Assembly: GCA_050084985.1 (NCBI GenBank)
Contig: JBITNC010000001.1
Coordinates: forward strand, 150,536,001 to 150,600,000
Direction of reading: 5' to 3'
Length of the DNA stretch: 64,000 nucleotides
DNA from: Nageia nagi
Taxonomy: Eukaryota; Plantae; Pinophyta
The notes under the pieces were generated by a model. The model made no database searches and was not told the DNA's origin. It saw only the letters and a list, made by a program, of their open reading frames with translations. Shown one piece after another: positions 8,102 through 43,710 of the stretch; position 1 is the first letter of the stretch, and each line of letters begins with the position of its first letter. Both the position numbers and the translations under genes were made by a program.

Positions 8102-8365
8102 ATGGAAGGGTTAAGCTCAGCCTTTCTCAGTACAAAGCACTTTCACTCAACATTGAAACCAATGCTGAGATTAGCAACTGGGCACACGCATTCACAGATT
8201 CCATACCAACTACAACAAAGGCATTTGTATACAGTACAGATGCCATTCTTATGTAGAGCCCATTCAAATTCAGATGGCAGCAGTAATGAGGAAAAAGGAC
8301 GCCTACACTTTGTGGGAATTGGTGGAAGCGGACTTTCAGCCCTTGCCTTGCTAGCCTTGAAACAA
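8102..8365 (+). CDS. MurC: MurC exon 1 (transit peptide plus GxGGxG dinucleotide-binding motif)
   Basis: ATG at 8102; 88 codons; Ser/Thr/His-rich, acid-poor N-terminus ending ...FLCRA; HFVGIGGSGLSALA; donor CAA|GTAAG at 8366. Confidence 0.93.
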
Positions 8366-11300
8366 GTAAGCCACTTAAGAGAGATTTTACTCTTTCCATC
8401 TTTGCATTAACTTCTTCTTAGCAATGCCGCCAAATCAAATGTTGCAATCGATTCTTTTCTGTGCCTTTCAATTGAATAATGGAAGCAACCTACAAGCTAT
8501 ACTATTAAATAAAATGCATATTTGCATATACAAGCTTTTGTAAACCCCTTATCTGTGTTTGTATAGATAACGTTCTTAGTTGAGATTGGTACATAAGAAT
8601 ATGATTAGTGTTGGATTTCAAATGCCTGCTTGATCTCGTAAATTAATTCTTGATTTGTAGCATCAGCTTCTTTTCAGACTGCTGCCTTACTGAATCCTTA
8701 TTTAGTTGTTAGAACTGAAATATACAGAGGTAACCCAAAACTGCATAAGAGATCTCCAGTTAGATACACCAACAGGATGTGTATTTAGCAACGTTTATGA
8801 TGGTAGTAGGATTCACTCTAAGGCAGAGAATTGAGATGTTTTACAGATTAGGGGAGTTATTGAACCCTTGGGGATGAAGTTACATAGTGCTGAGATTTGG
8901 GGTATGGGCTGAGGAGACTCTAGCCACTATACTCCAATTGTTGAATTGATGTAGGTTACGAGGCAGAATGGTGGATGCCATAGATGGAATGGCATTTTCT
9001 GTTTATTTAAATTTTATTTAAGAGAAAATATTAGGTAGGCTTTGTATTACCTGATTGCAATGGTTATGTTATGGCGGGAGCTTCTTGAGGAAGTTGAAAA
9101 TGTCCCCGAGGAAATCCCGACCTGGAGAGAATTCAAGAAATGCAGCAGCATTCAGTTTCTTGGCAACTTCGACTTTGAGGAAAAGAAGCATTAGTTGAAT
9201 CAAAGCAAGTATCTATGATGGTAGGTAAATATCAGCAAAAGATTGTTGAGTTGGTTAAGTGCACTATCAGGAGAAGAGAAGAAATCCATGTAAATAATTT
9301 TAAGTCGAAATTGAAAGAACATGTAAGAAATAGAGTGAAGATCTTCATGTCCAAACCTTTTTTGAGGCAATGGAAAAACATCCTTTTTTGGAAAGGTGTG
9401 GTTCAAAGAAGCAATCATTAGGCAAACTCAGATAAAACATAAAAGATACAAGGGAAGGCGATATTTTGAAAAATAAAAAAAAACTATCCATGGATATGAG
9501 TGATAGGGGCCGTATTGTCAGCAATGAACAGGCACAGAATAATTATTACTAATTGAGAAGGGTTTAATGTTTCAAATGTAGCGATTTGGGTCGTTATGCT
9601 ACATATTTTACAGGAAATGCTTTGAAGTGGATTTCTTGGGTACTATAGCGTAGTGGTAGAGTTGCTTCAGATTGTGATTATAGAATTGGAAGTGCAGTTT
9701 GGGTTTTGAATCTTTTTTATTAATATAGGTGGCAACCACAATTTTTTGATCCCCTTTATAGTCGCTAAGTGTAAGCTACAAGCTAGCAAGCTCCAAGAAT
9801 GCTAGAAGGTGCAGTTAGCAATTGGAGCTAAGAAAATAATTGTTCTTGGAGTTCCAGACTGTAAGGTAAATTTTGGTAATTGAAAACGTAATGTTGCACT
9901 GCATGTAAGAAAACTTTAGTTATGATGACCTCCTTTGGCAAGAACGGCTCCAGACTTGTAATGGAAGGTTGATTTTTCACATTAGCCAGTAGATTGTGTA
10001 GATAACTATAAAGGAGTTTGTGGATTCAAGATGCCATTGGCAATCAAACAGATGTCAACTATCCGTGCAAATAATTGTTTAAGAAAGGGATGGAAAGACT
10101 TGTTTGATTCCTAGTAATTTGTGCAAACTGCCTCTAGTGGAAGGGTGCAAAATGTCTTCCCAGATGACTTTCTATGTCTATATTTTGCCGTGGAAATGAA
10201 ACATAAAATTGCATACTTTTGTAATTGAATCAACATCCAAGTCATCTTGCCTGTTTAGCATTAGTGAACTATGTTAAAGGAGTTGCTGGAAAAAGATACA
10301 TAAGACCAATTGTGTTGACCTGGGTAGCACAAGTTTTAATTGTAAACAAGAAGAATGAGACAATGTACATGTGCATTAATTATTACATATTTGAGAATGT
10401 CATGGTAGCTTCTATCCTTTTCCCAAGATAGACGACTCTGATTGGCTTAGAGGAGCTTAATTTTTACCACAATTAATTTAAAGTATAGCCATCGTCAAAT
10501 AAAACAGAGAGGATGTTTGTAGACAACCTTTCAACTCTGATATGGCCATCACTATTTGAAATTCCTCATTTAACCTTTTGGATTAGCTAACTATCCAGCT
10601 GTGTTTATACAGCTTTTGAATGATATGTTGCAACATTATATGGACAAATTGCTGAGATCCTAATGTATTACAGGAGTCAGGTATACCATGGGTTTAATTA
10701 TTTTTCTAAGTCAATAGCACAAAAAATTAGACATATTAATCAGAAGATATGCTAGAATTCACATCCAATGGTAATGTCACAATAGAGAGTGGGAAAGTAA
10801 TGAAGAGATGAATAATGACGATAAGAAATATAAATGATTTCGGAAGCAACGCCACTTTGCAGAGGAAACCTCCCAATATAATATTCTCATAATAGTTCCA
10901 CTTCAATAATTCCAAATGAAGTCTGTTCTTATATATATTGAATATACCATAATTAAATTAGGGCAACCCATAACATCTAATTAGGCTAACCAATCAAGAA
11001 AAAGAAAGCATGGGAAATATCTAGAAAATTCATTTCCAGTTATGCAACCCTCAAGTTAATTGCTCCATACCTCAATCATGCATAACAAGGATAGTGATAC
11101 ATAAGGTTTAGAGTTCTAACATGCTTTTGACGATGAAAATGTGTTGGCCTTAATGATTGAGGGAAGACAATTGTTCCACATGAATTTTTCATGCTTCAAT
11201 GTAGAATCTTTAGTCGGTATCTTCTTCTACATGATGTGATGTACAATGATTGCCTTGTTAAGCAATTGTAGCCACATTTAGCATTTGCTATATCCAATAT

Positions 11301-12192
11301 TATGATATTGCATATATAAATGGCACATAAGGTCTAAGCAGGGATTTTAGTGGCCCCTTTGATCCATCTTACTTCCCTTACCCCTGTGTCATGACGCTCA
11401 CTTGTCCCTCTTCATTTGTCATTGGGCCCAAGCATTTTCAGCGATCTCCTATACAGCACTCTTTGTAACTCTTTGAATTCAAGTGATCATCTCAAGCAAG
11501 ATCTTCACTATTATTTCGTCTGCTGCAACCTTCTGGTGTGTACAAGGTCTTAGGATTTCTGATCATCTCTTGTTGCTTTGCTTGTCATCATTCATCTGCA
11601 TGATCACTATCTTCCTTGGCAAGCAGCATTACTTATCATCTTAAAGAATTCAACTCTAACATTTCAAATTAGAGCAATTAAACCTAGTTAGAACACAAGT
11701 TGTAGTTATTCCATCGCATTTTCATTTCAGGGCTTAGCAAATTTTTGACAACTAATCTTAGCACTTCATTTTAACTTATTTAGTACTTACAGATTATCAA
11801 GGTGTTATGTATTTCTGTTGTCTATCTGTGTTGTTGGTATATGGCTTTGGTTGGTCAGATTAGGATCTCAGTACTGACCATTGAGAGGAAATAACCTTGC
11901 AATAACAAGATTGTTTATGATGCCATGGCATCGTTCACACTGTAACAGGATTTTGTAAGTCAGATTCAACCTTCAGGAAAATAGTCTGGCTCTTCTTATC
12001 TCTTTGTTACTGTTCTGTTGCTTTGTACATTTGTCTGCTGCATTATCTTTTTTAAATTAGTTTTTCATTATCAGTAGGTTTGAACTTTAAATATTCTATC
12101 CCTATATTGCTTGGGTGGTCTTTTCTTTTTAGCAAAACTTTAGTTGGCTTTGCATCTGTTATTAGTTGTAATTTGAAATTTTAATCATAAAA

Positions 12193-13680
12193 TGTATTAT
12201 CCCCAAAAATTCTCAAGTGCAAATTAGCTACATAAAATACTTCAAAACATCCAAACTAGCCTTCAAGCATGCCACGTCTGATCGAGGGCATCAAATACAT
12301 GAAAAATCAATCCAGGAATGCCAACATAATACACCAACGCTAATATACTATGCCAAATACGTCCAGATATGCCAATGTTGCATTACACAAGTACAAACAT
12401 ACAAAATAGCTCAACGTGGGGAATATAGAAGCATGAACATCACACAATGAGACTATTATTGAGATCCAAAGGTGCCCACGGCTGCATTAATGATGAAAAT
12501 AGTGAATGATACAATACCAAGCCCAAAGGGCTCAACATTGGCCTCCAAGGAGCCAACTAGAGCACATGCAGTGCTGAGATAGACGTTGAAACTAGGGTAG
12601 AACAGCCACCTCCTACTAGTGTTGTGTATGCCTCATTGAAAGGCTCCCTCACAAACTAGCTCCCGATGAAGAGAACGGGTGTGGTTCCGGAATGCCACTG
12701 GATGGATTGAAAGATGAAGATCGCTTGTGGATGCCTCATTGTAGGGCAACCTCACTCCCATGAACAACACCTCAACTGTGTAAGACAAAAGGTGTTCTAA
12801 GCCTCCTGCGCTCTCCTTGTGCGCTGCGCTCAAGGGTGCTTGACACCACCGAGAATTTGGTAGCTCCGAAGAGAAGGGTTTCAATATCAAATTTAGTCTA
12901 TCTTTGCAATGATGTGAATCTCCTTTATATAACAATCCCTGGATCTGGATCTCAACTAGAAATCATCACTCCAACCTCTGAGTCCATCATTAGAGGCCCT
13001 CAAATGCCCAAACGTGGGGTTAGATGTGTCCTAGGTATCATACATATGCCAACGCTGCCTAGGGATGTCAATAATCCTATTTAATTATAAGATCCAATGG
13101 CTAGATATGCAATGCCTCATTATTGGAGACTAATATTGTATTTACAATTATTAATTGCCTTGGAATCATTTATTACAACTCGTACAAGTGGTCCTCATAA
13201 AACATACTAAATCTACTCTTAATTACCAAGCTCACACCTAAATACAATCCATAACTAACTCACATCCCAAGGAGTGGGACGTCACATTTCAAGGGGTCAA
13301 TATGGAGATGTTTTTGGATTTCCGTGAGCGGTCGCAATATGGAAGACTGGTCCAATTGGCAAACTTCAAGAGGCCATAACTCTTTCGTTTCCTGATGAAA
13401 CCATGTCGTGTAACCTGTCAAAATATTTCCCACGAGATGCCCTATCCAATGAACAAATCAAATCAACTCTCAAAGACCTGTGGTGAACTCTATCCTCAAA
13501 TAATTCATCCTAAGCTTGGGAGGAAGATGTCCCACTTTGGGGCTCACCATGTGGGTCCATAGGACCATAATATTCTATCCCAAAGAATTAGCAACAAATA
13601 CATGAACAACTAAAATATTTACAAAAGGGAATCCTTAGGATTCCAAAATTGTTTATTTTTTAGAAAAAGGGGATGTTACA
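12193..13680 (-). mobile_element. Solo LTR (1488 bp) of the local Ty3/gypsy chromovirus family
   Basis: TGTA...TACA termini; perfect 5-bp TSD TAAAA (12188-12192 and 13681-13685); shares CTCAAGTGCAAATTAGC, GGAGCCAACTAG and CCCACTT.GGGCTCAC blocks with the LTRs at 20840-41331. Confidence 0.9.
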
Positions 13681-14270
13681 TAAAATTCAGTCTCAAATCC
13701 TAGATAACGTATATATGTTCATAGGTATGTTGCAAATCTGATACGGTTTGAATGTGGCCTTAGGATATAGTTAACCTACATTCATCAATTACTTCATTTA
13801 TCAATCAGTTGGTGCTTTTAGTTTCAATATCACCTTTCCTTAATTTTCCAGATCTGGAAGTTTTCTCTATATTGGAATTTGATGACCTTAAACCCTTTTT
13901 GGATAGGATAAATAGAACAAAAGTGAGCCTTAAACGGATGGAGGTAGCTCTACATTGTAAGCCAAATTGTCAAAATTGTGTATCATTCAAGAACTCTAAA
14001 GTTGTATGACATGTTTTGATCCTTTGTTTTTTCAATAATTGTTTGTAGGGTTGTAATTGGAGAGCCATAGTCTTGCACAGAAAACTAATGTTTATTTCTT
14101 GTGCTGATCTGCTTGTTGCTTCATCCACTTTTGAGGCATTATTGAATTCTTTCCCGAGGATTCAAAACTATGTAAAAGGGAGTTCTCTTAGTTAATAAAT
14201 AATTTGTAAGGAATCCCTTGTTATATCATAAGGGAAAAAGCTTAAGCCTTTGGGATTGTCATAAAAAATA

Positions 14271-15118
14271 CTAAGTTACCAGGTTCACCTATGCAAGCCT
14301 CGGGTTTGGGTCCAGTTCGTCTTGGGTTCGGGTCCAGTTCGCTTATGCGTTCGGAAAAATCCTCCCCGATTTGCCCCAGGAGAACCTAGAGAGAACCCAA
14401 GAGAACCTAGAGAGAACTCAAGAGAATCCAGATAGAACCCAAGGAGGAAAGGGAGATATTTTGCACTTTTTTAGTGTTTTTTATTTGACTTTGACCAATT
14501 CCACCTTGTAAACCCTAAAAGTTACATGAAACCTTTAAACTACTTCATTCTTGTTCATTTCTCTTGCAAACAACAAATTTTATTCCAAGGGGCTGAGCAT
14601 TGGTTTTTTCTTGTCAAATCAACAAAGGAAGTTGAAGAGTGATCCTTGAAGCTTCTACAAGGATTATATTGCCATTCCTACTCATTTACAAATGTTCATC
14701 TAATATTTCTACTCATTTGCACTAGTTGTGGTTCATCTAATATTCCTACATCATCTAATGTCAATGATGATCACGACATTGCTGATTTAGAAAATCCACT
14801 TGATGATTAAACTAGTTGCTGAACTTGATATTATTATTTTGATATTGAACTTTAAGTTTGAACGATGAATATTTAATATTTATCATGCATGTATGATGTT
14901 TTAAATGACATTCAAGTTTATGGTTGTTTTGTTGTTTATATGATTCTATGTGATACTCTAATCTTAACTTCATGCTTCTAGGCTGCACATATATAAAAAA
15001 TTATGATTTTTAAATATCGTTTGTATGGACGAACCCAAACAAACTGAACCCCCCAAAAAACACTTTAACTGAATTGGTGTACCGGATCACCGAACCGGAA
15101 CCGGAACTGGTAACTTAG
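14271..15118. mobile_element. Non-autonomous hAT-type DNA transposon / MITE (848 bp)
   Basis: 12-bp TIR CTAAGTTACCAG...CTGGTAACTTAG; perfect 8-bp TSD AAAAAATA; subterminal GGTTCG/CGAACC motifs. Confidence 0.9.
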
Positions 15119-16054
15119 AAAAAATATGATAATGGAGGTACACTTCTAAATGGTTGGTAATAATTGTTTGCTGATCTGATTGGGAGTGCTGTGATAAAGG
15201 TTGTGTTCGAGTGTTCAGAACAAACAGTTATGTTTAGCACTAGCACATGATTACAAATTACAGAAACAAAAAAGAAATGATTAACAATTTACAGTAAATA
15301 AAATTATAAATATGTGCGCTCTTTGTGCAGTGTATGGTCATCAACAATCCTGTCCATAAATGAGCACTCTTAATGTCAACACCTTCTGTTGGGATATTTC
15401 ATTGAAATTGAAGATTGGGTAGTCAATCTGTCTAAGCTGTATGATTTTTTATCTAAGGCTAATAGTGGTTGGTCTGTTAGAGTAACATCAAATGCACCGG
15501 AGTATGACACCAACTTAACTGAAATGATCCTAATTTGTGTACTTATTTGATGTTATGCTATACTAAAGTGTTAATAGGTACTTATATCGAGTTTAGCTAC
15601 AAATTGTACTTCTTGCATGTTGGGACATGGGGTATCTAGATTGCCAAAGTTTTGGAATTAATGTTTTTTTTTAAATAATCAGAATAAATTCTCGGTATGT
15701 TTTTTGCATTTTTTATTTTCAGTGAGAATTTCACCTTCATGTAATATGCATCTTTCTTGAATAGCTTTGGTGATTACAATCTACATCTTCTATATGCATA
15801 ATTCTTCCAGTGAAAATAAGGTGGCCAGTTTTAGTATGAAGGTTTTTTGAAGGAGCCCTTGATTGTGTCAGTTTCATTGCCAAATTGATTGAGGGTTGTA
15901 TGGCGCTCTTAGGATCATGCTGACTTTGTTTTGTTCCAGTAAAATTTTGTTCATGATATATCTTATTTTACCGAAATAACGTATTTTTATGGCAGTAATT
16001 GGTTCTTTACATGTAGCTAAATTTGCTATTTGATGTGTTATGCTTGGTATGTAG

Positions 16055-16263
16055 GGTTGGAGGGTAAGTGGCTCTGACGTTACCTGGAGTATTTATATGG
16101 ATGCATTGGAAAGGGCAGGGGCAAGATTACTTTTAGGCCATTCTTCTGCTCATTTACTAGAGAACACTCAGCAAACTTCTCTTCCTGTTGCGGTTGTGGT
16201 TTCTAATGCAATTCCTGAGGACAATGAAGAGATAGAATTTGCAAATTCATTGGGAATACAAGT
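16055..16263 (+). CDS. MurC: MurC exon 2
   Basis: Acceptor TGTAG| at 16054; GWRVSGSD...VVVSNAIPEDNEEIEFANSLGIQV; donor GT|GTTAGT at 16264 (phase 2). Confidence 0.92.
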
Positions 16264-16841
16264 GTTAGTATTTTCTTGTTATACTCCCTTTGTAATACTG
16301 CTTCGGCAAATATATTATGAACCTAAAAAGTTGGAATTTTGATTTCTTATATCCATAGTTACAAAATTTGGGAGTATTTGGTTTATGCGGCTGAATATTT
16401 GTGGAGTCAATGAAACGGAATAAACATGGAAAAGTTTGCAAAAATCACATATTCTGAGAATATGCGTTTTTTTGCTGAATAATTACCATTTGATATATTT
16501 TATGTAATTTTTTTTGCATTTCTAATTTACCATTTTTTTGCCAAATATTCTCTGCATATCTGAATTTTAAAAGTTTGAACCCAAACGAATATTGGTTAAA
16601 TCCAAATTTCACTATGATAATTATATGTTTCAAAACTTAAAACCTATGAATAATAACAAGAGATCAAAAGGTGACAAATGATTGAAGAATTAACTCATAT
16701 GGATGAAATTATAAGCAAAACTTTGATTTCCCATTGTTTTTCTAAGAACATTGCAACCATATCATATACTTATATTATTTGGCTTCTATGTTCATTGAGC
16801 ATAGCGTCAATGCTATATAGGTAGCGCCAACATTGGTTTGG

Positions 16842-18995
16842 TGATAAATCTAGTGACATGATTTTGGGAGATTGAAGTGTTCAGTGATGGATGCATTTTG
16901 GAGGAGTTTGGGTGTGTTTTGACATGAACTAGACCTTAAAATAGTCTTCTACATGATTGGTGTGACTCGGGAAGGTCGACCCAAAGTTTGATGAGTATTT
17001 ACCTGATTGTCAACACCAATGCTGCAAGCAACGTCAACGTTGGGACGACAGGGCATGTTTGGGGTAAGTTGAACCGTTTCTTAGCTGTTTTGGAGTCGTT
17101 TGGAATCCATTGGAAACTGAAGGGGCGATGGTTTCAGTTTATATACTACCTTGAGCACTTCATAGAAGGTTGTTGATAGATTGTAGAGGGATTGATAGGA
17201 TTTGAGAGTGGTTGTAAGGGTTTATGAATCTATGACTGATCATTCTTGAAGCCATTAAAATTGCAGACTTGATAGATTTGTTTGAGGAGGCTAAGAAGGT
17301 TGGAGTTGATTATGTTGAAGGCAATAATAATTCTGCCTTGTCTTTGTAATCTCTTTGCATTCAATTATTTGATAAATTGGGGTTGCTTGAAGTGGATGTA
17401 CTCTCACATTGAGGGGAACTATTATAAATACTTGTGTCATCTTGTATTTGTGTTTGCAAATCTTTTTTACTGTTGTTTTATTTCCTTTATATAGTAATAT
17501 ACAATATATATGCATCAATGGATGATATACAAAACTCATAACAATAAGAAATTTGTATTTGAGGATCCTAGTAGGCCATAGGCTTTAGGTGATTACAAAT
17601 CACGTGTTATCAGAGCTGAGATGGATTTTGTTTTGGAGACTTGTATAAGTGGGGTGGAAGATCTCAAAATCCTAAGTTAGTTTCATTTAATCCTAAGATT
17701 GTGAGAAGAGGAAATTCTTCCATGGAAGGTGGAGAAGAATAGTCCAACAGAGTTGGAGATGGTATATCCATGCCACTATCATAATTTGAAAGAAGATTCT
17801 TACTCATGGAGCGTAATCTCAATAGACTTGTGGAGATGATGTTAAAGGATAGGCAGTCTGGAAATAAGTAGAATAAGCAACAACAACTTGAGAATAGGGA
17901 AAGAGGTCCAAATGATGCATGCCCTTCTTCTGCATCAATTCCTTTCAAGGTGGAGGCAAAGGTGGAAATCCCTCCTTTTGGAGACGTGAATGCTTAGAAT
18001 TAGATAATTGGCTGCAGTAATTAGAAGTCTATTTCCAAGTACAAGGTGTGCCTAGTGATGAGCAAAAGATTTCCTTTGCAAGACTGAAGATGGGTGATCA
18101 TGCTCTAGTTTGGTGGGAAAGTCGTGTGGAATCCTTTAGACATGAGAACCTACCACCTATGTCTTCATGGGGAGAGTTCAAGAAGATATTTAAGGAGCAA
18201 TTCTATCCATTGATTCACCATAATAAGCAACTAATGGAATGGCAATACTTTAGACAACAAAGGGGCCAATCTGTCCAAGACTATACAACAAAGTTTAGGA
18301 AACAAGCTACCTTGCTTGAGATCTCTCTTAGAGATCCACAAGTGCTGATGAAATATATTGGAGGATTGCATAGCCATTTGAGAAGAACCATAATGTTGTT
18401 CAATCCGTCAAATCTTGACCAAGTGAGTGTGTAGGTTCAATATTTGGAAGAAAATGGGAAAGGTAGTAAGGGGATAACTCCAACAAAAATCAGAATCATA
18501 AGGGTCATCAAGATAAGGGAAATCTCAAGATGAAGGCAAGAGAAAGCAATAGGACAGGAAGACCACTAACACCACCAAGAAAGATGATGAAAGAAAGAAA
18601 AAAAGAAAGAAAATATATTAATGTCCATGGGTGACCAAAAGCGGTCAATGGGACTGGAAGGTGACCAAAAGTGGTCAATGAGAAGAAATATTATTCACAT
18701 TGTGACAAAGATGGGCACATTGATGCAAAATGTGGAAGCTTCACCTAGAATTGTATCCTTCCAAGCGGAAGAATCAAGAAAAGATGAATGCAATGATCAC
18801 CAAGAGTGAAGATGTTGATGATAGCTCTAAGTGGATGATGAAATTACTTGTGCAACCATATAGGAGGTTGAAAACAAACTTGTGGAGCATGATGTGGAGG
18901 AGAGGACACAATTGTTTCATCTCAAAATCCAATCTAGGAAGACCACATTGCTAAAAGCTTGGTGAATGAGCTAGGATTGGAGACTTACAACCATT
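16842..18995 (+). mobile_element. 5' fragment of a CRM-like Ty3/gypsy retrotransposon (LTR about 16842-17602, PBS, gag), cut off at 18996
   Basis: TGAT...ATCA LTR-like ends; PBS TGTTATCAGAGC (tRNA-iMet type) at 17605-17616; gag follows. The LTR left boundary is tentative. Confidence 0.7.
17930..18995 (+). pseudogene. gag: Degenerate gag (with zinc-knuckle relic) and start of protease
   Basis: IPFKVEAKVEIPPF...LEVYF...EQKISFARLKMGDHALVWWES...QRGQSVQDYTTKFRK...KYIGGL; knuckle relic HCDKDGH...WKLH; stops and frameshifts. Confidence 0.85.
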
Positions 18996-20839: not shown

Positions 20840-21997
20840 TGTAAAGATCCAAATACAATCTCAAGTGCAAATTAGCAAATTCAATTAAACAAACCCTAAC
20901 ATCTAGCCTAGGGCATTCGAATCAAACCCCAACAATGCAAATATACCAACGTCTGGCTACTAGCAGATATCAACCAACACAAGCTCACAATGCCAACGTC
21001 TAGCTACAACATGCATAAATGGACAATAATACCACAATGTTGCAATAGTAAAGAATACACAAGATAAATATTGAGATCCAAATGCCCAATGGCTATATGT
21101 ATGATATAGGATGAACAACAATACAATACCAAGCTCCCAGAGTTGGACATTGGCCTCCAAGGAGCCAACTAGGGCACAATGAATATCCTCAAGCTGGACG
21201 GACGAGGGATGGGAAAGTCTTGCTCCCTCAAAACATGAATCCTCTCCATCGAAGGAGCCCTCCTTTGAACCTGGTGACCAACTGAATGGTAGAAGCGCAA
21301 CCTCGGAATACCATCGGATGGGCAAGGGTGCTACACCAATGCCTTAGACTAACAAGATCCCTCAGCCTATCAATCGTCATAGATGCTGCACTTAGGGTTT
21401 GCTTAGCACCGCTAAATCTTCTTGTCCTTTGGACGGTATGAGTGTAATAATAATCAAGCATATCTAGCTATGAGGCTCCAATGTCCTTTTATAACACTTG
21501 GTTGGATCTGGATCTCACCTAGGAATCATCCCTAGCTCCTCTAATCCAACTTTAGCCTCTTGGAGGGCCCAAAGTGCCAACATGGGGGCCTGGAGTGCCA
21601 TAAATGTCAACATGGGGGTCTGGAGTGCCATAAATGTCAACGTGGGGGTTTGGAGTGTCACACATTGCTAATGTGGGTCTAGGAGTCATGCGCGGGGGTT
21701 GGGTGTCATAATGGGGCAACATGGGGGTCTAGGAGTCATGCATGGGGGCTGGGTGTCATCATGGGCCAATGTGGGGGTCTAGGAGCCTCCCCAAGGCTAC
21801 CGCATGTATACAAGTGCTCATCCATCCATCTAAGTGCTAAACAAATCTTGGGATTCCCACAATCATGATCGGGATCTCCAAGTACAATTAAACACCTAAT
21901 CTATGCTTGGGAGGGGACGTTCCACTTGGGGCTCACAGTGGGGTCCATTAACCCATTAAGTCTTCTATCCCAAGTCCTAACTTAAAACATAACATAA
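20840..21997 (-). mobile_element. LTR copy A1 (lacks the last ~70-80 bp; abutted by LTR A2)
   Basis: Starts TGTAAAGATCCAAATACAATCTCAAGTGC; collinear with LTRs A2-A4. Confidence 0.85.
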
Positions 21998-33300: not shown

Positions 33301-33856
33301 CCAAATCACAACACACCTCGAGAAGTTGGATGGATATCTCCTGAATGTCAGCCATCTACGATAGGTTTTCGTTGATAGACTAGAATAATTGGTCTACTGC
33401 CATGAGTTTATGTATCAGCATGACTAGTTCAGCATGCATTTGAGAAGAGCAATGTTGTTTTGAAGGTAAGGATCCCCTTAAGAAAGGAGGTTGAGGAGCA
33501 AATAAGTAGATATGTGTACCAGCTTAGATTTCAGGGGGAGGATAACAATGTGTGAAGGAAGGAAGCAGTATTGGCAAAGGCCCAAAACTTAATCCAGGAG
33601 CATCTAGATGTGGAAGACCTCAGTTTGTTGAAGGCAAGGCATCCCATTGTCCATGAAAGGTAAATGGTCATCTGGAGACCAGATGCAGGCTACGTCCAAA
33701 CAGATTGGGGACTATTTTCAGCAGAACGACAGCATTGTTGGCATGGTTTCTAGAGGAGTGCGGAAAACCATGGCGTTCTTGGAAGAGACCATTGAGTCGT
33801 ACAGTCTCACCAGTGAGGATTGGAACTTTGCCAGTACCGGATCAAACCTATCCTAG
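30333..33856 (+). pseudogene. Degenerate retroelement accessory ORF (about 1170 codons; conserved N-domain, acidic middle, coiled-coil-like C-terminus)
   Basis: Fragments RFYMNSYLVYLLL, TYIRMYGSEEQPILPEYASDRLILMEFAEQL, YDPQGVIAQF (ORF 31514-32287) and E/D-rich tracts; many stops and frameshifts; TATA-like CTATAAAT at 30161. Confidence 0.65.
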
Positions 33857-35060
33857 ATCTGATCCACTCGCAAATTTTGTCTGCGATAATCTTTCTTTGT
33901 TTAATGCATATTAATGGTGGTTGTTGTTGTTATGTTCAAACTTTATTTGATTTGGGTGGTGAAGGGATGAGGTTTTTCTCCTGCCATATCAAATCTGTCA
34001 GACTTATTAATGGTTCTGATTGGTGCAGGGATGAGGTTTTGCTCTTGCCGGTGCAAAATTTAAACATTTATTGCATATCTGATTTTATTTTGCATAGGTT
34101 AGTGATAGATTAGATGCATTCCAGCTGTGGCATTTATATTTTGTCAGCTTTTAAGTGCCACTTGCATCGGTTTTTTGTGAGCAATAAGATTTTGTATCGG
34201 TATGTGTGTTGCATGTGTGCACACCATATCAGATTTTATGCCTTTAGGGCAACACTTCTAGTGGCCTATTTATACCCCATTCGGGCCATTTAGAAGGGGA
34301 TTTTTGCATATGTGAGAAATTTTACAAAAACTGGAGGATTTTTGCATAATGTTGATTGCATGAGATTTTGCATTTGTAAGAACTGGAGGATTTTTTGCAT
34401 TTGCAAAACTGAAGAATATAGCATATGTGCCATTTCTGCATATTATTGTCTATCTTTGAAGATTTTGCATATATGTGAATTTGCATATGAAAGATTTCAG
34501 TATTCCACTGTATAGAAGTTTGCTGCATAAGGGGTTCTATTATGATTGTGTATTGTTACATCTATGCTATACTTTGAATATCATGTTAAGGATACTGCAA
34601 ACAAGTAAGGAATGTTCTTGCTCATGTCATTGAATATCATTATGAATTGATTTGTTTTTGGAATAGCGTTATAAAGTAATTATTGTGGAGATTATCATTT
34701 GTGGGATCATGCATATTTCCCTGATGGTTTGAATAGTTTTTCCTCTTAAAGTGTATTCTTTTGAAAGCTGTGAGTTTCAAGAGAAGATTATTGAATATTT
34801 GTTGAAGTGGTTTAAGTTGTTCATTGCATGGTTTGCATGTAAGTAAATGTATTTTGGGGCATATAGCTTGTCTCTATGTCATTCGGTTAGACTTGTATAT
34901 TCACACCATCATTTTCTTTTACCCTACTCCATTAAGTCTTCCACCAAGACCCTACAACTTCCTACTCTCGTCTGGTAGTGATTTGAGCGCTTATTGCTAT
35001 TTGCTACCTGGCTTGATAGTGAATACATTTTTCTCAATGAATCCGGAGATGACCTGCTGA

Positions 35061-35402
35061 CATAGTTAGAAAAAATAGAATCGGATCAGAATAGTTTGGT
35101 TGCAAAATTCCGATTTTTTGAAAAATCGGACAAAATCAGCAAAAAAAATGATAAAATCGGCATGAGAAAAAATGAAGGAATTTGTTCGATTTTAGCTAAA
35201 TCTCAAAAAATCGGATAGAATCGGCAAATAATCAGCGGCCGATTCAATGCCATTTTTTTCCGAAAAAAATTGCGATTTTTTTGTCTAAAAGATCGGAATC
35301 GGAATCGGAAAAAATCGGATAAACACTTATTTGAAAAAAATTGGATCCCATTTGAATCGGATCGTTTGCTTGGCCGATTCCAATTTGATTTTTACAACTA
35401 TG
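35061..35402. mobile_element. hAT-type MITE (342 bp) nested in the 28358 unit
   Basis: TIR CATAGTT...AACTATG; 8-bp TSD CCTGCTGA / CCTGCCGA (one CpG-type mismatch); many AATCGG/CCGATT subterminal motifs. Confidence 0.85.
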
Positions 35403-35775
35403 CCTGCCGAGACACTGCATCACTGGTGATGTCTTCATAAGTTCATTATTCATATTCCTATGCATTTATCCCTGCATTTGTGATCTTTCTTCGCTTCCGT
35501 TCACATTTGCAGTCTTTCCTCTTTGTGGAAAACAAACTCAGACAGTGTATTTTCCTTGTATACGGTTAACAACAAGCATCTTTGACTATTGTGCCCTAGA
35601 CCATATTCGATGTGAGCGCTTGGGGTAACCAGTGCTTTTAGGTGGAAACAAGTAACGCTATTTCCTCCAAGTCTTGTGCATGTTTTGGGCAAAGAAAGAA
35701 AAACATACCAACACCATGGCCCCTCCATGTCCAATGTGGCCACATCTTCTTTCTTGTTCTTTTGACACCACTCAA

Positions 35776-37221
35776 TCATATCCAGCCCTTTATTGTCCAC
35801 TCGTTGACAATCATCACGGATCCCCTGAGTGTGAAGCAAGAATGTGGTCTAATGAACATCCAATCAGCAACCAACATTTCCCTCCAAAAATCAGCAAGTG
35901 TGTGATACTCAGGTCTGAAATCAACATGCAATGGCTCAAAATCAGTTTTCAATGTACCCCATGCATCATACGAACACATGATAACAGCTCCTATGGTGGA
36001 CAAGGAAGTTGCCAACATTGGTTCTTCAAAAATACCCCAACATGGTACATGGAAAATCATCCATGGAATCTTCAACTGTGTACTAACAGCAGGTAACAAA
36101 TCAATCCCTGATATACCAACAATAAGCCAATCAAAGTACCTATCCTTCTCATAATATACAATAGTCCATGCAGCCCATGCCTCATCAAATGCAGTCCCTG
36201 ATGGGTGAACAACAGCCCTAAAATCAGCAGCCTTTCTTTTCCATGTGCAGCCACAAAATGTAGTTCTATCAGTCATGAAGAATGCAGTCCAAGATGTTGA
36301 CAACAACAGCAACATTTCAGTCCTAACTGTCTCCACGATCATTGTCTTCAAGGGCAAAGATTTGGTCCCCAAAATCACCAAGCACTCAGTCCCACATGCA
36401 GCCCCAAACTCAGTTCTGGAGTAAAACTGAAACCAAAGTGAAAATGCGAGAAATGTGGCACTTCCTCTTGCAACGGATGAGTGAAGCTCAGATCTGTAAC
36501 ACGTGGTCTTTGACAGCCCAAAATCAGCCCTAAACATTGCCCAATCAGCTCTCCAATTTGTAATGACTATTTCATTTTGATTTTTGAACGCACACAACAA
36601 ATCTTCCCTCTTCTTGATGTTTTGGCTGTAAGTAAATATGTCATGAGAAAGTATGATGCCCTTCTCATGTTCAACTCTTTCAAAAGAAGCTATGGATTCC
36701 TGCAAACTCACAAACAACCAAAGTGAGCTAAAACAAGTGAGGCTAGTGCTCCATGTCATTTGCCAAAGATCCAAGTGGTTCCAAGGACCATCAAGTCCTT
36801 CATCATAGGCTGAAACTGTTTTCCCTTTCTTCTCTAAGGCTGATTTGGAAAGCTTCATGCTTTCATTTTCATTCCCCATGAACACCTCCAACCTTCTAAA
36901 TCTCCCATTGTGTGCTAAGACAATTGGATCCCATGGAGCGAGAAGTCTATTGCAATTCACATAAAGAATCGATTCTTTCCACATATCACACCTTGAAACC
37001 AAAGGCATGAAACTAGTATGTGCATACTCACAAGCCGATTGAAAGGTTTCAACATTCACACCTACATCAAGCTTCTTGTTCTTCACTACATTCTCAACAA
37101 ATAGGGGTGATTGTATTTTGAAGGAAACATCTTGTAGCTTTGCTTGACATACCTCATGTGCTGATACAATGATTTTTGATTTTCCAAGATCTGAAATAGC
37201 ATTTTCTTTGTAATGTACCAA
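35776..37221 (-). CDS. 481-aa open frame of unknown function inside a non-autonomous LTR element
   Basis: Longest ORF in the window; blocks QSPxFVExVxKxKKLDVxVNVETFQSACEYAH...LLAPWDP and LHxDF..RPEYHTLAD are shared with ORFs at 47697-49004; no gag/pol motifs. Confidence 0.45.
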   Translation of the reverse strand: MVHYKENAISDLGKSKIIVSAHEVCQAKLQDVSFKIQSPLFVENVVKNKKLDVGVNVETFQSACEYAHTSFMPLVSRCDMWKESILYVNCNRLLAPWDPIVLAHNGRFRRLEVFMGNENESMKLSKSALEKKGKTVSAYDEGLDGPWNHLDLWQMTWSTSLTCFSSLWLFVSLQESIASFERVEHEKGIILSHDIFTYSQNIKKREDLLCAFKNQNEIVITNWRADWAMFRADFGLSKTTCYRSELHSSVARGSATFLAFSLWFQFYSRTEFGAACGTECLVILGTKSLPLKTMIVETVRTEMLLLLSTSWTAFFMTDRTTFCGCTWKRKAADFRAVVHPSGTAFDEAWAAWTIVYYEKDRYFDWLIVGISGIDLLPAVSTQLKIPWMIFHVPCWGIFEEPMLATSLSTIGAVIMCSYDAWGTLKTDFEPLHVDFRPEYHTLADFWREMLVADWMFIRPHSCFTLRGSVMIVNEWTIKGWI

Positions 37222-40175
37222 AAATAAATATTTTTTGTAAATGTCTCCTACACTTAATTATAAAAGTGAAAAAGGAGTTCATGTGACTAGGAGACATAAC
37301 TTAAGTTGTGTTTATCTATGTTTTATATTTTTATTTTGTAATAGGGCACTTTAAGTGATTTTAGGGTTGGGAGATGTCAACTCCAAATTAGAATATGAGC
37401 TTATAAAAGGGAAGTGGGCATCCCATTTGAGGAAAGCTTGTGGATCATCTATTTTATTATTTTTGAGTGAAGGAGATTCCTTTCTCAACCCAAGTGTGCA
37501 TGTGTTCATGCATATTTGGATCTCAAGGGTTGTGGGCCTTAGTCTTGGGGGTGTTTGTACACCTAGAGCTAAAGGTAGCTATTGCTTGGGAGACTTCAGG
37601 AGTTGTGGGCCTCAATCTTGGGGATGCTTGCACATCTAGAGTTGGAGGTAGCGATTTCTTGGAGAGATCTTGAGGGTTGGAGGCCTTGCATGGGAGCCTA
37701 GCCTCATTCTGTTGCATCATTTTCAGATCTGGCCAATTTGTGGGATTTTTGTGAGCTTGGATCTGCATTTGTGGCACTTCAGCTATTGTATTGGTTTGAC
37801 ATCATTTTTTTTTAATAAAATTCCTTGGCTGATTCTCTCCATTATTTTTCATATTTTTCTGAGTTTTGACATTGTTCCTTGGCTGCAAGTTTATTTCTGT
37901 GTTTTGAGCATTCACTTGAGCAATAAAAATAAAAGGAACATTACATTCTTCTTTGCAATCTTTATCCTCCTCCATGTTAGATTCAAAGCCATCTTCACCT
38001 TCCTCACTATTATTTCCGGAAACCAAATATGAAACAACAATGGCTCTTTCCTCTTTCTTTCCAATATTATTACTTTCAACCACATCATGTAAAATTTCTG
38101 AATTACTGTCATTGAAATCAGAATTGCTTTCATAACTTATTGGGGTGTCAACATGGCTGATCCAAGATTCTTTCTTTGCCAATTCTCCTTCTTGTCCAAC
38201 GTTGGATGCCCAAGCTCCTTGGTGCTCAACGTGGGGTGCTAAACCTCTTCCTAGTTCAATGTTGGGTGCCAAGCCTTCTTTATGTCCAGCATGGGGTGCC
38301 AAATTTCCTCTATGCCCAACGTGTGATGTCAAGACTCCTTGTCTGTCCTTACCATCGAATCTAGGAATCTTATCAATTCCCCTTGATTCCCTCGAAATCC
38401 TTCCTTGGTATTTTTGCGGCCATGGTGAAGATGAACATGATGATGGAGAATGCGAAATTCTTCTTTTTGCATGAAGAGTGTCTTGATATCTGAAATCTTC
38501 TTTGGATTTGATGTCATTTTCTCCACACTCTCATATAGCTAGATCGGAGTGATCTAGGGCTGGTGTAACCCCCAACGTCTCTTCTTGGGGAGTTTCTTTG
38601 GAGAAATGCATCTAACTCCTTAGTACACTGTTGCATCTCTATGATCAATGATCTACAGAGATGTATGAGCTGATCATACTTCTCTGTTTCTTTCCATGGT
38701 GCCATAGTTGTCAAGACCCTAACTCACAAATCTGAAATCTTCATATTAAATTTTTCTAAGTAGCTAAGATAATAGATCAAGACTTTTTATACCTAAAAAC
38801 GGCCTTCAGATCTGTAGATATATCCTTAGAACCCTAGTCAACTTAGTCTAGGAATTCAGACTTTTCTGAAAAATTGCCATTTTGACCTCGAAACTAGTCT
38901 TTTAAGTGCAGCACCTCCAGATCTACTGGTTCAATTTGCTTCTAGCTGGATCTTAACCTCACAGGCTGGCCAAATCCAAGCTTTGATACCACTGTAAAGA
39001 TCTGAATACAATCTCAAGTGCAAATTAGCAAATTCAACCCAATAAACCCTAACGTCTAGCCTAGGGCATTTGAATCAAACATCCACAATGCACATATGCC
39101 AATGTCTAGTTACAATTAGCAATTATCAACCAACACAAGCTCATAATGCCAACGTATGGCTCATACAAACACATACATGCAAAATTAATCCAATGATGCC
39201 AACAGACATGTATCCACAACACAAATATGAGATCCAAATGCCCAACAACTGTGTAGAAGATATGAATTTAGTAACAATACAATACCGAGCTCCCAGAGCT
39301 AAACATTGGCCTTTAAGGAGCTGACTAGGGCACAACGTATATCCTCAATGTTGGACGGACAAATGGAACAATGGGACAATCTTGCTTCCTCAGAACCTGA
39401 ATCCTCTCCATTGAAGGAGCCCTCCTTTGATCCTGGTGACCAACTGAATGGTAGAAGCGCAACCTTGGAATACCATCGGATGGGCAAGGGTACTACACCA
39501 ATGTTGTAGACTAATAGGATCCCTCAGCCTGTTAATCCTCCTAGATGCTGCACCTAGGGGTTTGCTTAGTGTTTCTAAGTCTTCTTGTCCTTCGGATGGT
39601 ATGAGTGTAATAATAATCAAGCATATCCATCTATGAGGCTCCAATGTCCCTTTATAACACTCGGTTGGATCTGGATCTAACCTAGGAATCATCCCCAGCT
39701 CCTCTAATCCAACATTAGCATCCTAGAGAGCCCAAAATGCCCAACGTGCCTAGGGGTCAAGCATGCCAACGTGGGGGCTTGAAGTGCCATAAATGCCAAT
39801 GTGGGTGTCTGGAGTGCCATGCATACGAGGGTCTAGGAGCCATGCGTTGGGGTTGGGTGTCATCATGGGCCAATGTGCGGGTCTAGGAGTCTCCCCAAGG
39901 CTAGCGCATATACATAAATGCTTATTCAATCTCATAAGTGCTAAATAGACATTGGGATTCCCACAATCATGATCGGGATCTCCAAGTACAAGAAAACTCC
40001 TATTCTATGCTTGGGAGGGAGACGTCCCACTTGGGGCTCATAGTGGGGTCCATTGACCCATTAAGTCTTCTATCCCAAGCCATAACTAAAAGTACAATGC
40101 ACTAATAAAATATATTACAAAGGAGAATCCGTTGGATTCGATAATTATTTATAATAATACAAGGGGGATGTCACA

Positions 40176-41331
40176 CAAACACACCAAAATATGAGACAAG
40201 AAATGGAGATCAAATGTGCCACGACTCAATTAATGATGGAATGATTGGTACAATACAATACCAGGCCCTCAAGGGCCCAACGTTGGCCTCAAAGGAGCCA
40301 ACTAGGGAACACTGATTTGCAGATATGAACTCTGATGCAGATATGTTGTAGAAAAACCACACTCTACTAGATCTGTGGACGTCTTATTGAAGGGCTTCCT
40401 CATAGGTTAGCTCCCGGTGAAGAAAACAAGTGCGATTCCAGAATACCATCGGATGGATTCAAAGTTGCAGACCGCTATGGACGCCTCAGGGTAGGGCAAC
40501 CTCACAACACGAACATTCACCTCAACTGCTAGTCAGAAGGTGTTCCAAGCCTCTTGGACTCTCCCTGGTCTACATGCCCAAATGTGCTTGACACCGCAAA
40601 GACTTTAGAAGCTCTGAAGAAGAAGGGGTTTCAATATCAAATTCAACATATATGTGTAATGGTGCACCAATGTCTTTTATAACATTCATGGATCTGGATC
40701 TCACCTAGAAGTTATCACTGAGTCTCTCTAATCCAACATCAGCCTCCTAGAGGCTCCAAAATGCCCAACGTGGGTGTCTAGGGATCATGCATGCCCAACG
40801 TGGGTGTTTAGGGGTCTTACATGCCCAACGTGGGTCCTTATGCGCAACATGGGTGTCTTGGAAGTCATGCAAGCCAACGTGGGGGTTGAGGAGTCATGCG
40901 TGGGTGTCTTGGTGTCATCATGGCCAATGTGGGGGTCTAGGAGTCATGAGTGGGTTTCTTTGTGTCATCATGGCCAATGTGGGGGTCCAGAGTCTCCCCA
41001 AGGTTGGCGCAAGCATACAAGTGTAATAATGTTCGCTAAGTCCAACATTGGATTTAGGGGTGACTATCCGTGCTTACTCTGCCATCTTAAGTGTTACATA
41101 AGACTTGGGATTTCCACAATCAAATTTAGGATATCCAAGTGCATTAATAACTAATAAAATAACTCATCCTAGGCTTGGGAGGAAAACATCCCTTTTTGGG
41201 GCTTACAATGTGGGTCTGATGGACCATTATATTTCTATCCCAAGTAGCTAATAATGCAAAAACAAAATATTTACAAAGGGAACACCTAGGATCCCAAATT
41301 TACTTAATTTTGCTCAAAAAGGGATGTTACA
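40176..41331 (-). mobile_element. Left-truncated LTR related to the 12193 solo LTR
   Basis: Collinear with 12450-13000 (GTAGGGCAACCTCAC, GAAGAGAAGGG.TTTCAATATCAAAT); ends GGGATGTTACA. Confidence 0.8.
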
Positions 41332-41899
41332 AAATGATATTGTTAAAAAGTCTAGAGATGAGGGAGGAGGGTTTTACTAGCATGCTTGACATTCTTGGAT
41401 TGGATCTTTTGAATTTTCTTGCAAACTAGATGGGGAGAGAAGAAATCTGGAGTGGCGGAGTGGGAGAATATGACAGTTGGGGTTTGGTTGGGGTCATTAT
41501 AGAGTCGGGAGGCATAGGCTTGCTAGACATGAAGGGGGATACCGCATAGGTTTTGTCTTTTGGATAGAAAGGAGCTCTAGAAAGATTTGGGGTTGTGGTG
41601 AAGGGAGGAGATAACCTACTGCCTCCTTTTGGCTAAGAAATCATATTTCCTAGCCCTTAGAAGGCAGTGGCAGGATTGATGTAGGGAGAAAGTGGCAGGA
41701 TTGATATAGGGAGTGGGTGGAGGATGTGGATGAATCAAGGGTGATGGCATGCTTGAGGTCACAATTATTAGCTTTACATTCCATGTTAAACTATTGATTC
41801 ATTAGGTAATGTCCTATTAATCAGGCGCATGATGGAGGGTGGGTGGTGTGGGGGAAAGCTTGGAGGGTTGCAAAGTGGAGGGTGTCAACAAGAAAGAGA

Positions 41900-42260
41900 G
41901 CTTGGGCATAAATAGAGGAGAATAACATGAGGAGAATAAGTTCATGTTATGGAGTTTCTATTTTAGGAGGTGGTTATATAAGTTGGAGAGGATCGTGTTG
42001 AAGTGGATGTTTGTACGAGGGGTGGATGGGGTAGGGGGAGGAGGGGCAAATGATAAGGAGCGACATGAAAGGATTGAAAATGAGGAGTTGATAGAAGGAT
42101 TGAAGAGGATGTAGCTGACAACACTGGAGCCATTGACACGGGGAACAAGGTGTGATGTCAAGAGTTAGGGAATTGAGCAATACCATTCAAAATTATAAGG
42201 TCGTGTGCCTTGTCAAGCTTGAGTAAGAATTTGCCATATGCCAAGGGAGGCATAGTGTTT
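41900..42260 (-). pseudogene. Relic of a LINE APE-type endonuclease domain
   Basis: Minus strand reads AYGKFLLKLDKAHDLIILNGI...NGSSVVSYIL...SPHVI, matching the endonuclease motifs GxxLLxLC...LxILNG...GxSxVDY...SDH. Confidence 0.55.
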
Positions 42261-43639
42261 GCAGATGTCTGTTAGAGCCCAAGGATGCGATCAAAGGTAG
42301 ATGTTTGTTGGAGCCCAAGGACATGATCAAAGGCCTTGTGGTGAAGAGGGTTTGACCTGTCATCAAAGTACTGTCTGTAGTTTCCTTGTCCCAGCATTGT
42401 TTGTAATCATGATATTGCCTTGTATTGAGAAATCTTCAGGAAAAGGTCAATTTGCGAGGATTCTCCAAACCATTGTATGATAAAATGCGATGTTATTGGT
42501 GGGAAGTAACACCCTGCTATGTATACTCTCTTGAGTGGTGGGGATCTTGACTAGCTCAATGACTGCTTTTAGCTAGAACATTGGGTACATATAAGAGATC
42601 CAAAAATTGAATTAGGGCCAGAATATATTCAGGGTTTACCCTTTGATAATAAGCTTGTATTATTGTTGCAATATAATTCAAAGCTGTTTGACATTTTCCA
42701 ATTTATGCTTCTGAATTGGTTTGTTTACTAGAATGTTGAGAATTTTCATTTTCGTTTATTCTGATTAACTAAATGACGCTTCAAATTTACTTTTCTGTAT
42801 GAATTTTATTAACATGATTTCAGATGTGTCTTTTAAGTTGAAGATGAATGCTATGTTTAATCCAACCAAATTGATCGTGTGGTTGTTTCCAATACTCAGG
42901 TCATATTGGAATTTTCCTTAGTAAATCTCCAAGACTGGAAATTTACTTTTTGTCTCTTCTTCCTTTTTCCTTTTCCTCTGTTTACTTTCTCTTTCAATAA
43001 ATTATGCAGCTGGTCTACTCCGGATATTGATCTAATAATTTCTTAGTTCATCCAAACACATTGTGACTAAGGGTGCACAATATTATTAAAGGCTAATCAA
43101 CATTTAGTTTTCGATTGCTTCCTACATATTTGTTGAGCTGGTTTTGATTGTTTTGGAGGTGTGGTACAACTCTTCCCCTTTTTTTGGTATCATAGCCAGC
43201 TTTATTATGTCTTATATATAACTAAATAGTTTTCTTTTCAATAAAAAAATATATTAATTCAATTTAAAATAGTAAGTATAAATGATTTGTTAATGAATTT
43301 TGAACCTAGATATTATTGAGATCTTTTTGCCCTTACGTTAATGTGTATCAAATATCAGTATGACACAGTTTTTTTTCTCATTTTTTATTGCTGTCATATT
43401 TGTTTCAAATTTACAGTTTTTTTCATAGACTCTGTGTAATGTCAAGTGACAGAAAGGACTGATTTCCTTATCATCCGTCAACTGTCTCATATGAGGCATT
43501 TTACAGTAATAGTTTAATAGTTGTTTTTGGCTTTTTTCATCTAAATTTTGGTATCTTTAAAGGGAAATGAGGTTTAATGGTCCACTTGTATGGGATTTCC
43601 TTTGCAGTTAGATTCATTGGTTTATTATTTAATTTTCAG

Positions 43640-43710
43640 ATATAAAAGAGATGCTTGGCTGGCAAAAATTACAGAAAGTTACAATGTCATTGCAGTCAGT
43701 GGTTCACATG
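43640..43710 (+). CDS. MurC: MurC exon 3 (71 nt, ends inside the P-loop)
   Basis: Acceptor TTTTCAG| at 43639; first A completes GTA(Val), then YKRDAWLAKITESYNVIAVSGSH-G; donor G|GTACTT at 43711. Too short to appear in the ORF track. Confidence 0.9.

What the first reader, a model, noticed from the sequence alone, without database searches (positions are those of the whole stretch)
8102..43710. Apparently intact plastid-targeted peptidoglycan ligase MurC hidden as three small exons in a probable seed-plant genome
Seen: three exons, 544 nt in total and spread over 35.6 kb, splice in frame with canonical sites and retain every expected N-terminal MurC motif behind a ~52-aa transit-peptide-like leader, while all surrounding coding DNA is decayed. 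Established: MurC adds L-Ala to UDP-MurNAc; plastid peptidoglycan is demonstrated in moss; Mur gene sets have been reported in some gymnosperms, while most angiosperms lack MurC. Inference: this lineage keeps a selected chloroplast peptidoglycan(-like) pathway or a repurposed Mur ligase. The gene family is not new in plants, but to my knowledge a functional wall in seed-plant plastids is unresolved, and this locus would be easily missed by annotation.
Basis: partly seen in the sequence, partly recalled or inferred. Interest (0 to 1): 0.78.

Follow-up and report, generated by a model that had tools for sequence, protein, structure and literature searches.

The report
Ordinary conifer chloroplast-wall ligase gene
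These three small exons are the spliced first third of a conifer's murC gene, which likely makes a chloroplast-imported enzyme for the first peptide step of peptidoglycan, and the same gene is already published for spruce, Japanese cedar and yew.

Summary
Observation confirmed. Exons 8102-8365, 16055-16263 and 43640-43710 have GT-AG ends and give 181 in-frame residues. Public contigs guessed to be RNA show junction 1 in 6 of 7 covering runs and junction 2 in 6 of 7. This is only the N-terminal third; no fourth exon was found in the window. The peptide groups with Taxus and Cryptomeria MurC. Its nearest full-length relative (84.5% identical) passes the murC cut-off, fails mpl, and folds like bacterial MurC. 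The Cryptomeria ortholog is the accession tabulated by Sugita et al. 2025 (PMC12681378), who cloned all 11 spruce Mur cDNAs, so this is another member of a known set. Activity, import and a plastid wall were not tested. Loose ends: all 7 covering runs read C at 16085 where the window has T (Trp99 to Arg), and the lineage evolves somewhat faster. The scan's earlier notes held no plant MurC.

The parts
8001..8101 (+). 5' untranslated part of exon 1 (as far as contigs reach; not a mapped start)
   Evidence: contig pieces begin at 8001, 8010, 8012, 8019 with 0 other letters
8102..8365 (+). coding part of exon 1, residues 1-88
   Evidence: TIGR01082 murC positions 2-20, E 0.0016
8102..8296 (+). 65-residue leader, predicted plastid transit peptide plus linker
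   Evidence: first 50 residues: 10 Ser/Thr, 4 Lys/Arg, 1 acidic; pLDDT under 50 over 1-44 and 54-61 in the P0001 model; Cryptomeria ortholog predicted plastid 0.9687; no targeting predictor run here
8315..8338 (+). glycine-rich UDP-binding loop, residues 72-79
   Evidence: role from PMC3060825 passage
8366..16054 (+). intron 1, 7,689 nt, phase 0, GT-AG
   Evidence: joint 8365>16055 in contigs
8366..8374 (+). 9-nt in-frame extension of exon 1 seen in one run (alternative donor; skipped part reads TT..AG against the window)
   Evidence: run X1, joint 8374>16055; 1 of 7 covering runs
16055..16263 (+). exon 2, residues 89-158: SGSD motif, His117, Ile141
   Evidence: Pfam Mur_ligase 38.7 bits over cut-off 21; murC E 2.4e-8; 7 of 7 PDB hits are MurC; contigs
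16085..16085 (+). first base of codon 99: T in the window (Trp), C in all covering contigs (Arg)
16264..43639 (+). intron 2, 27,376 nt, phase 2, GT-AG, with retrotransposon remnants
   Evidence: loose ends; gag/capsid hit at 18021-18431; repeats
43640..43710 (+). exon 3, residues 158-181, ending just before the P-loop Gly-Lys
   Evidence: first 30 letters seen behind 16263 in 6 runs; tblastn E 1e-8
43711..64000 (+). start of intron 3 (at least 20,290 nt); no further murC exon found in the window
   Evidence: pattern scan for the next exon and tblastn with six homologs found none

Best explanation
This is the spliced 5' third of the vertically inherited nuclear murC gene of a non-pine (conifer II-type) conifer, whose protein is predicted to be imported into the plastid and likely joins L-alanine to UDP-MurNAc using ATP, the first ligase step for a likely plastid peptidoglycan. 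Shown: exons, two splice junctions, MurC identity, orthology. Inferred: the remaining ~386 residues follow in exons beyond 64000. The leader would be removed on import. Domain 1 (exons 1-2) would bind the UDP part, and the P-loop domain (from exon 3) would form the acyl-phosphate that L-alanine, held by domain 3, attacks. MurD-F, Ddl, MraY, MurG, MurJ and PBP would complete the polymer, which in moss is needed for plastid division. The long introns are transposon-filled, as expected in conifer genomes (own knowledge).
For: Splicing: (7 covering runs, 4 coded organisms, 5 coded studies). Five of the 7 contigs carry 1,413-1,510 more letters after exon 2; 1,231 are needed for a 567-residue frame. 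Identity: exon hits to murC. P0001 (84.5% over 181 residues) scores 387.5 on TIGR01082 (cut-off 335.1), 171.2 on mpl (388.7) and 70.2 on murD (211.95). Its model (mean pLDDT 84.2) matches MurC structures at ranks 1-12. Uracil contacts of H. influenzae MurC (Ile50, His70, Ile87; PMC3060825) align to Val97, His117, Ile141, and Asp49 to Asp96. Orthology: window+P0001 (SH-aLRT 100) lie in a clade with Taxus and Cryptomeria (98) in a tree that follows land-plant relationships. P0142 is XP_057842312, the MurC of Sugita et al. Table S2. Constraint: core 107 of 116 identical to P0001 against leader 46 of 65, Fisher p 0.0002. Pathway context: spruce MurE has ligase activity and complements moss; spruce PBP partly complements (PMC12681378 abstract and Discussion).
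Against: Only 181 residues are in the window and the downstream frame of the contigs could not be read. The runs are guessed, not recorded, as RNA. Expressed copies carry Arg99 where 107 of 118 plant homologs have Trp (2 have Arg), and Asn139 where 111 of 118 have Ser. P0001 evolves faster than Taxus/Cryptomeria in 7 of 10 non-independent relative-rate tests. Exon-2 differences to organism J are 5 replacement and 2 silent (ratio about 0.75, n = 7). No plant MurC assay turned up in my searches. Larch MurE was inactive in vitro, and no wall has been shown in gymnosperm plastids.
Confidence: 0.83

Rival explanations
1. The gene is expressed but under relaxed selection or retuned in this conifer lineage: a slower or changed MurC, or one kept for a non-wall role as angiosperm MurE is kept in the plastid RNA polymerase.
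For: Branch to P0001 0.40 against 0.14-0.16 for Taxus and Cryptomeria; 7 of 10 relative-rate tests p < 0.05; Arg99 in four organisms; position 139 is Asn, Tyr or Ser within the lineage; 5 replacement to 2 silent changes in exon 2. Sugita et al. note a deviant MurE motif in podocarp gymnosperms; whether the window is a podocarp was not established.
Against: P0001 keeps all 15 motifs checked and deviates at 8 of 163 conserved columns (median 4, quartiles 2-7, maximum 11 in 102 homologs). Position 99 aligns to Asp52 of H. influenzae MurC, not one of the contact residues named in the passages read. The rate tests have no control genes, so a lineage-wide rate would look the same; with Magnolia as outgroup they are not significant (p 0.76, 0.26). 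Seven changes cannot separate a ratio of 0.2 from 1 (P 0.10 and 0.80).
Confidence: 0.11
2. The locus is a transcribed pseudogene or a silent duplicate: the visible exons are clean but the gene is broken downstream, or the contigs come from a near-identical second copy.
For: Two thirds of the coding sequence is unseen; the window differs from every contig at 16085.
Against: Exon 1 is letter-identical to contigs of four runs and exon 2 differs at one base; contig lengths fit a full frame; the sister protein P0001 is a full 567 residues; core over leader conservation.
Confidence: 0.05
3. It is bacterial contamination, a recent horizontal transfer, or another Mur ligase (Mpl, MurD).
For: Only that Mur ligases are typically bacterial.
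Against: Spliceosomal introns with spliced contigs; all named rows among the 120 best homologs are plants or streptophyte algae; nests with conifers; mpl and murD far below cut-off.
Confidence: 0.01

Closest known systems
Conifer plastid MurC: Cryptomeria japonica XP_057842312 (LOC131051716), Taxus chinensis KI387_036182, Picea abies PaMurC (Sugita et al. 2025, PMC12681378)
   Same: Same gene: 78-80% identical in exon 2, one clade, N-terminal leader plus MurC domains; the Cryptomeria protein is predicted plastidial.
   Different: Shorter leader (65 against 79-81 residues), longer branch, Asn139, and Arg99 in the contigs. This lineage had no named record in my three protein searches.
Moss (Physcomitrium patens) plastid peptidoglycan pathway
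   Same: Orthologous MurC (P0101, passes the murC cut-off). The MurC product UDP-MurNAc-Ala was detected in moss extracts (PMC9434261 passage).
   Different: In moss the wall is labelled and several Mur knock-outs give giant chloroplasts (as cited in PMC12681378); nothing equivalent is reported there for conifers.
Bacterial MurC, EC 6.3.2.8 (number recalled); H. influenzae 1P3D, E. coli 2F00
   Same: Three Pfam domains, fold (TM 0.64-0.65 by query length for P0001), uracil contacts, P-loop, metal-binding Glu and His.
   Different: About 29-34% identity, N-terminal leader, introns, insertions in the middle domain. Plant MurC is reported as sister to Frankia MurC2 and not cyanobacterial (PMC7231273); not tested here.
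Angiosperm MurE/PAP11 (example of a repurposed Mur ligase)
   Same: Plastid Mur-ligase fold kept in seed plants.
   Different: A different paralog (about 15% identity); I found no report of repurposing for MurC.

Membership tests
MurC (TIGR01082) | Whole-protein score above the curated cut-off, and higher than Mpl/MurD | tested here: met
   On the proxy P0001 (387.5 vs 335.1; mpl 171.2 vs 388.7). The window's separate exons hit murC best but cannot reach a whole-protein cut-off.
MurC (TIGR01082) | N-domain UDP-MurNAc site: glycine-rich loop, Asp, and three uracil contacts | tested here: met
   Residues 72-79, Asp96, Val97, His117, Ile141; neighbours 139 (and 99 in contigs) deviate from the plant consensus.
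MurC (TIGR01082) | P-loop Lys, Mg-binding Glu and His, C-terminal amino-acid-binding domain | tested here: inconclusive
   Present in P0001; for the window these lie beyond exon 3 and were not seen.
MurC (TIGR01082) | Three-domain Mur ligase fold closest to MurC | tested here: met
   P0001 model; ranks 1-12 all MurC, first Mpl at rank 20.
MurC (TIGR01082) | ATP-dependent ligation of L-Ala to UDP-MurNAc | not testable with these tools
   Needs an enzyme assay.
Land-plant plastid MurC orthogroup | Monophyly with named plant MurC | tested here: met
   quick IQ-TREE search, 41 rows chosen from 144 proteins plus the window peptide (30% of columns filled), no bacterial outgroup, midpoint root.
Land-plant plastid MurC orthogroup | Nuclear, intron-containing, spliced transcript | tested here: met
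   contigs of runs guessed to be RNA.
Land-plant plastid MurC orthogroup | Plastid import by an N-terminal transit peptide | tested here: inconclusive
   Composition and disorder fit; no predictor or GFP test.
Complete plastid peptidoglycan (11-gene Mur) set | MurA, B, D, E, F, G, J, MraY, Ddl and class A PBP in the same genome | not testable with these tools
   No genome held.
Complete plastid peptidoglycan (11-gene Mur) set | Peptidoglycan around the plastid, needed for division | not testable with these tools
   Open for gymnosperms according to PMC12681378.
Mpl (TIGR01081) | Score above cut-off; bulky residue in the glycine-rich loop | tested here: not met
   171.2 vs 388.7; the window has Gly77 where Mpl has Phe.

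The most novel reading that the evidence does not exclude
In this conifer lineage the expressed MurC has drifted or been retuned (Arg99, unstable position 139, faster evolution), marking a seed-plant group caught in the act of relaxing or repurposing plastid peptidoglycan synthesis. The boldest sub-case, about 0.02 on its own, is that the genome's T and the transcripts' C at 16085 reflect U-to-C recoding of a nuclear mRNA shared by four related conifers.
Probability: 0.11. Interest if true: 0.55.

Novelty: new member of a known kind. Interest (0 to 1): 0.2.

Why it matters
It adds one more conifer lineage to the published list of gymnosperms that keep and splice murC, which fits the view that conifers retain plastid peptidoglycan precursor synthesis. 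It does not make that open question more testable than the spruce and Cryptomeria clones already do. It would matter more if the Arg99 enzyme proved altered, or if the rest of the Mur set were eroding in this lineage.

Tried and rejected
Whole-genome search for other Mur genes: no genome held. Exon 4 in the window: none. Full-length protein of the window's own organism: not returned by three searches; weak evidence, as the collection is incomplete. Sequencing runs: no RNA holder listed on record; all 23 rows are guesses. Run X12 laid nothing on exon 2, no proof of absence. The joined-form count in other runs was not given. dN/dS from 7 exon-2 changes: inconclusive. The careful tree search did not finish; the quick tree was used. 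Literature search for plastid peptidoglycan with Podocarpaceae or Araucariaceae: none of the 10 listed papers held the phrase. Earlier scan notes: no plant MurC. U-to-C editing at 16085 was considered and ranked low: it would replace a conserved Trp; C before G is a mutable site in a window with CpG observed/expected 0.31, so a back-mutation, an allele or a consensus error in the assembly explains it; nuclear U-to-C editing is described as not broadly accepted (PMC8001311, start of abstract only). Bacterial contamination, Mpl and MurD: rejected.
Full report
Observation. Each internal boundary is GT-AG, the phases are 0, 2 and 1, and the joined 544 nt read as 181 open codons. Exon 2 alone passes Pfam Mur_ligase (38.7 bits, cut-off 21), hits TIGR01082 murC best, and all 7 PDB sequence hits are MurC. 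A full-length relative, P0001, aligns to exactly these three places and nothing else significant in the window. A pattern scan and tblastn found no fourth exon up to 64000, so intron 3 is over 20 kb and the window holds about one third of the gene.

Splicing. One search listed 23 runs, none on record as RNA; 8 were laid and 7 covered exon 2. In one search (4 runs of organism A, 4 studies) single contigs cover 8001-8019 to 8365 with no other letters, skip intron 1 and resume at 16055. Three use the donor at 8365; run X1 uses 8374, adding three residues in frame. In one search (organisms B, C, J; organism G laid nothing) the loose ends before 16055 are exon 1's last 30 letters. Five contigs are 1,978-2,073 nt and carry 1,413-1,510 letters after exon 2, where a 567-residue frame needs 1,231. 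Their frame beyond the first 30 letters could not be read. Contigs show presence, not level or strand.

Identity. The spliced peptide is 84.5% identical to P0001 over 181 residues. P0001 passes the murC cut-off and fails mpl and murD, keeps all 15 motifs checked, and its AlphaFold2 model (pLDDT 84.2) matches bacterial MurC structures at ranks 1-12. In the window itself, 41 of 43 highly conserved columns match, and the uracil-contact residues named for H. influenzae MurC in PMC3060825 (passages) align to Val97, His117 and Ile141.

Orthology. In a quick ML tree of 41 rows (40 chosen from 144 proteins to cover the named lineages, plus the window peptide; no bacterial outgroup), the window and P0001 are sisters (100) inside a clade with Taxus and Cryptomeria (98), next to a clade of five unnamed rows that I take to be Pinaceae (inference), then angiosperms, then ferns, lycophytes, bryophytes and algae. 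The organism is therefore most likely a conifer II-type conifer; I did not place it further. Cluster member P0142 is XP_057842312, the Cryptomeria MurC in Table S2 of Sugita et al. 2025, predicted plastidial at 0.9687.

How it most likely works. Shown: a nuclear gene with long, retrotransposon-containing introns is spliced, and encodes a 65-residue low-acid leader and the MurC UDP-binding domain. The core is more conserved than the leader against P0001 (107 of 116 vs 46 of 65; p 0.0002). Inferred from the family: import into the plastid, removal of the leader, ATP-driven acyl-phosphate formation on UDP-MurNAc and attack by L-alanine (mechanism as in PMC3060825). Inferred from moss and spruce: the product feeds MurD-F, MraY, MurG, MurJ and PBP to make a thin wall linked to plastid division. 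None of the inferred steps was tested here, and no genome was held to look for the other genes.

What is known. PMC12681378 (abstract, Introduction, first Results section, Discussion, further passages and Table S2 read) cloned 11 Mur cDNAs from Picea abies, found full frames in Cryptomeria, showed MurE activity and moss complementation, and states that the role of peptidoglycan in gymnosperm plastid division is unresolved. It lists MurC for Cryptomeria, Larix, Pseudotsuga, Thuja, Sequoia and Taxus, and 'not found' for Pinus lambertiana and Abies alba. bioRxiv 10.1101/2023.05.02.539068 (parts 1-2 of 3 read; figures and supplements not seen, and these hold the per-genome gene table) reports full toolkits in Thuja, Asparagus and Citrus and says most angiosperms lack a complete set. 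PMC9434261 (passages) detected the MurC product in moss. PMC7231273 (abstract, Results, Discussion) places plant MurC beside Frankia MurC2. Lin 2017, van Baren 2016, Hirano 2016 and Sato and Takano 2017 were seen only as citations. Eight paper searches showed no enzyme assay of a plant MurC in what I read; the library lacks most subscription journals.

In one search, 96 of the 120 listed homologs (of 190 at E 1e-100 or better) are named angiosperm proteins from 68 genera by hand count, from Nymphaea and magnoliids to monocots, Vitis, Prunus, Gossypium and Solanum. No Brassicaceae, Poaceae or Fabaceae row is among those 120. Vitis and Nicotiana pass the murC cut-off; the Citrus row, damaged at its N-terminus, falls just short. 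MurC is thus widespread in flowering plants, and a conifer copy is expected.

Results against the simple reading. All 7 covering runs read C at 16085, turning Trp99 into Arg; 107 of 118 homologs with a residue there have Trp and 2 have Arg. Residue 139 is Asn in the window, Tyr in P0001 and Ser in organism J. P0001 shows an excess of changes over Taxus and Cryptomeria in 7 of 10 overlapping relative-rate tests, not with Magnolia as outgroup. Exon-2 differences to organism J are 5 replacement and 2 silent among the 7 listed (8 counted). These hint at relaxed constraint but do not show it: the numbers are small, there are no control genes, and P0001's 8 deviations at 163 conserved columns are within the family's range. 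The T/C difference is most simply an allele, a CpG back-mutation or a consensus error in the assembly; it needs DNA and RNA from one plant.

Verdict. Real, spliced and correctly named; an expected ortholog of a published conifer gene. New member of a known kind, interest 0.2.

Noticed in passing
window 16085: T in the window, C in contigs of all 7 covering runs from 4 coded organisms (Trp99 vs Arg); it is the only exon 1-2 difference from organism A, and the window's letter is the ancestral one.
   Followed up: partly
window 8366-8380: Run X1 splices 9 nt later (8374), adding three residues in frame; against the window the skipped part begins TT. A T>G allele at 8375 would make a strong GT donor; untested.
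   Followed up: partly
window 8028-8086: Three upstream ATGs in the transcribed leader (8028, 8042, 8072) open short frames of 10, 14 and 4 codons that stop before the main ATG; possible translational damping.
   Followed up: no
protein list: MurC homologs in 68 named angiosperm genera, with no Brassicaceae, Poaceae or Fabaceae among the 120 rows listed; suggests patchy losses, not general absence.
   Followed up: partly
window 46430-47584 and 50131-51296; 21998-23611 and 26211-27847; 26192-27395 and 38974-40175: Direct-repeat pairs of 1.2-1.65 kb at 90%, 83% and 85% identity, likely LTRs of one repeat family nested in introns 2 and 3.
   Followed up: partly
window 35779-37257 (-): A 493-codon stop-free frame without a Pfam match, partly repeated at 48715-49105 (88%); probably the interior of the same repeat family.
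   Followed up: partly
window 62398-63843 (-), 54831-55535 (+), 18021-18431 (+), 52979-53299 (+): Retrotransposon remnants: integrase, RNase H and gag/capsid domains.
   Followed up: partly
window 12105-15174: Repeats inside intron 1 attract many short contigs at 90-99% identity, i.e. related copies transcribed or present elsewhere.
   Followed up: no
window 56994-57304: Tandem array with a 78/156-nt period.
   Followed up: no
P0002, P0003, P0142, P0143: Cryptomeria MurC is annotated with four isoforms; X2 and X4 lack parts of the ATP-binding domain and X4 falls below the murC cut-off.
   Followed up: no
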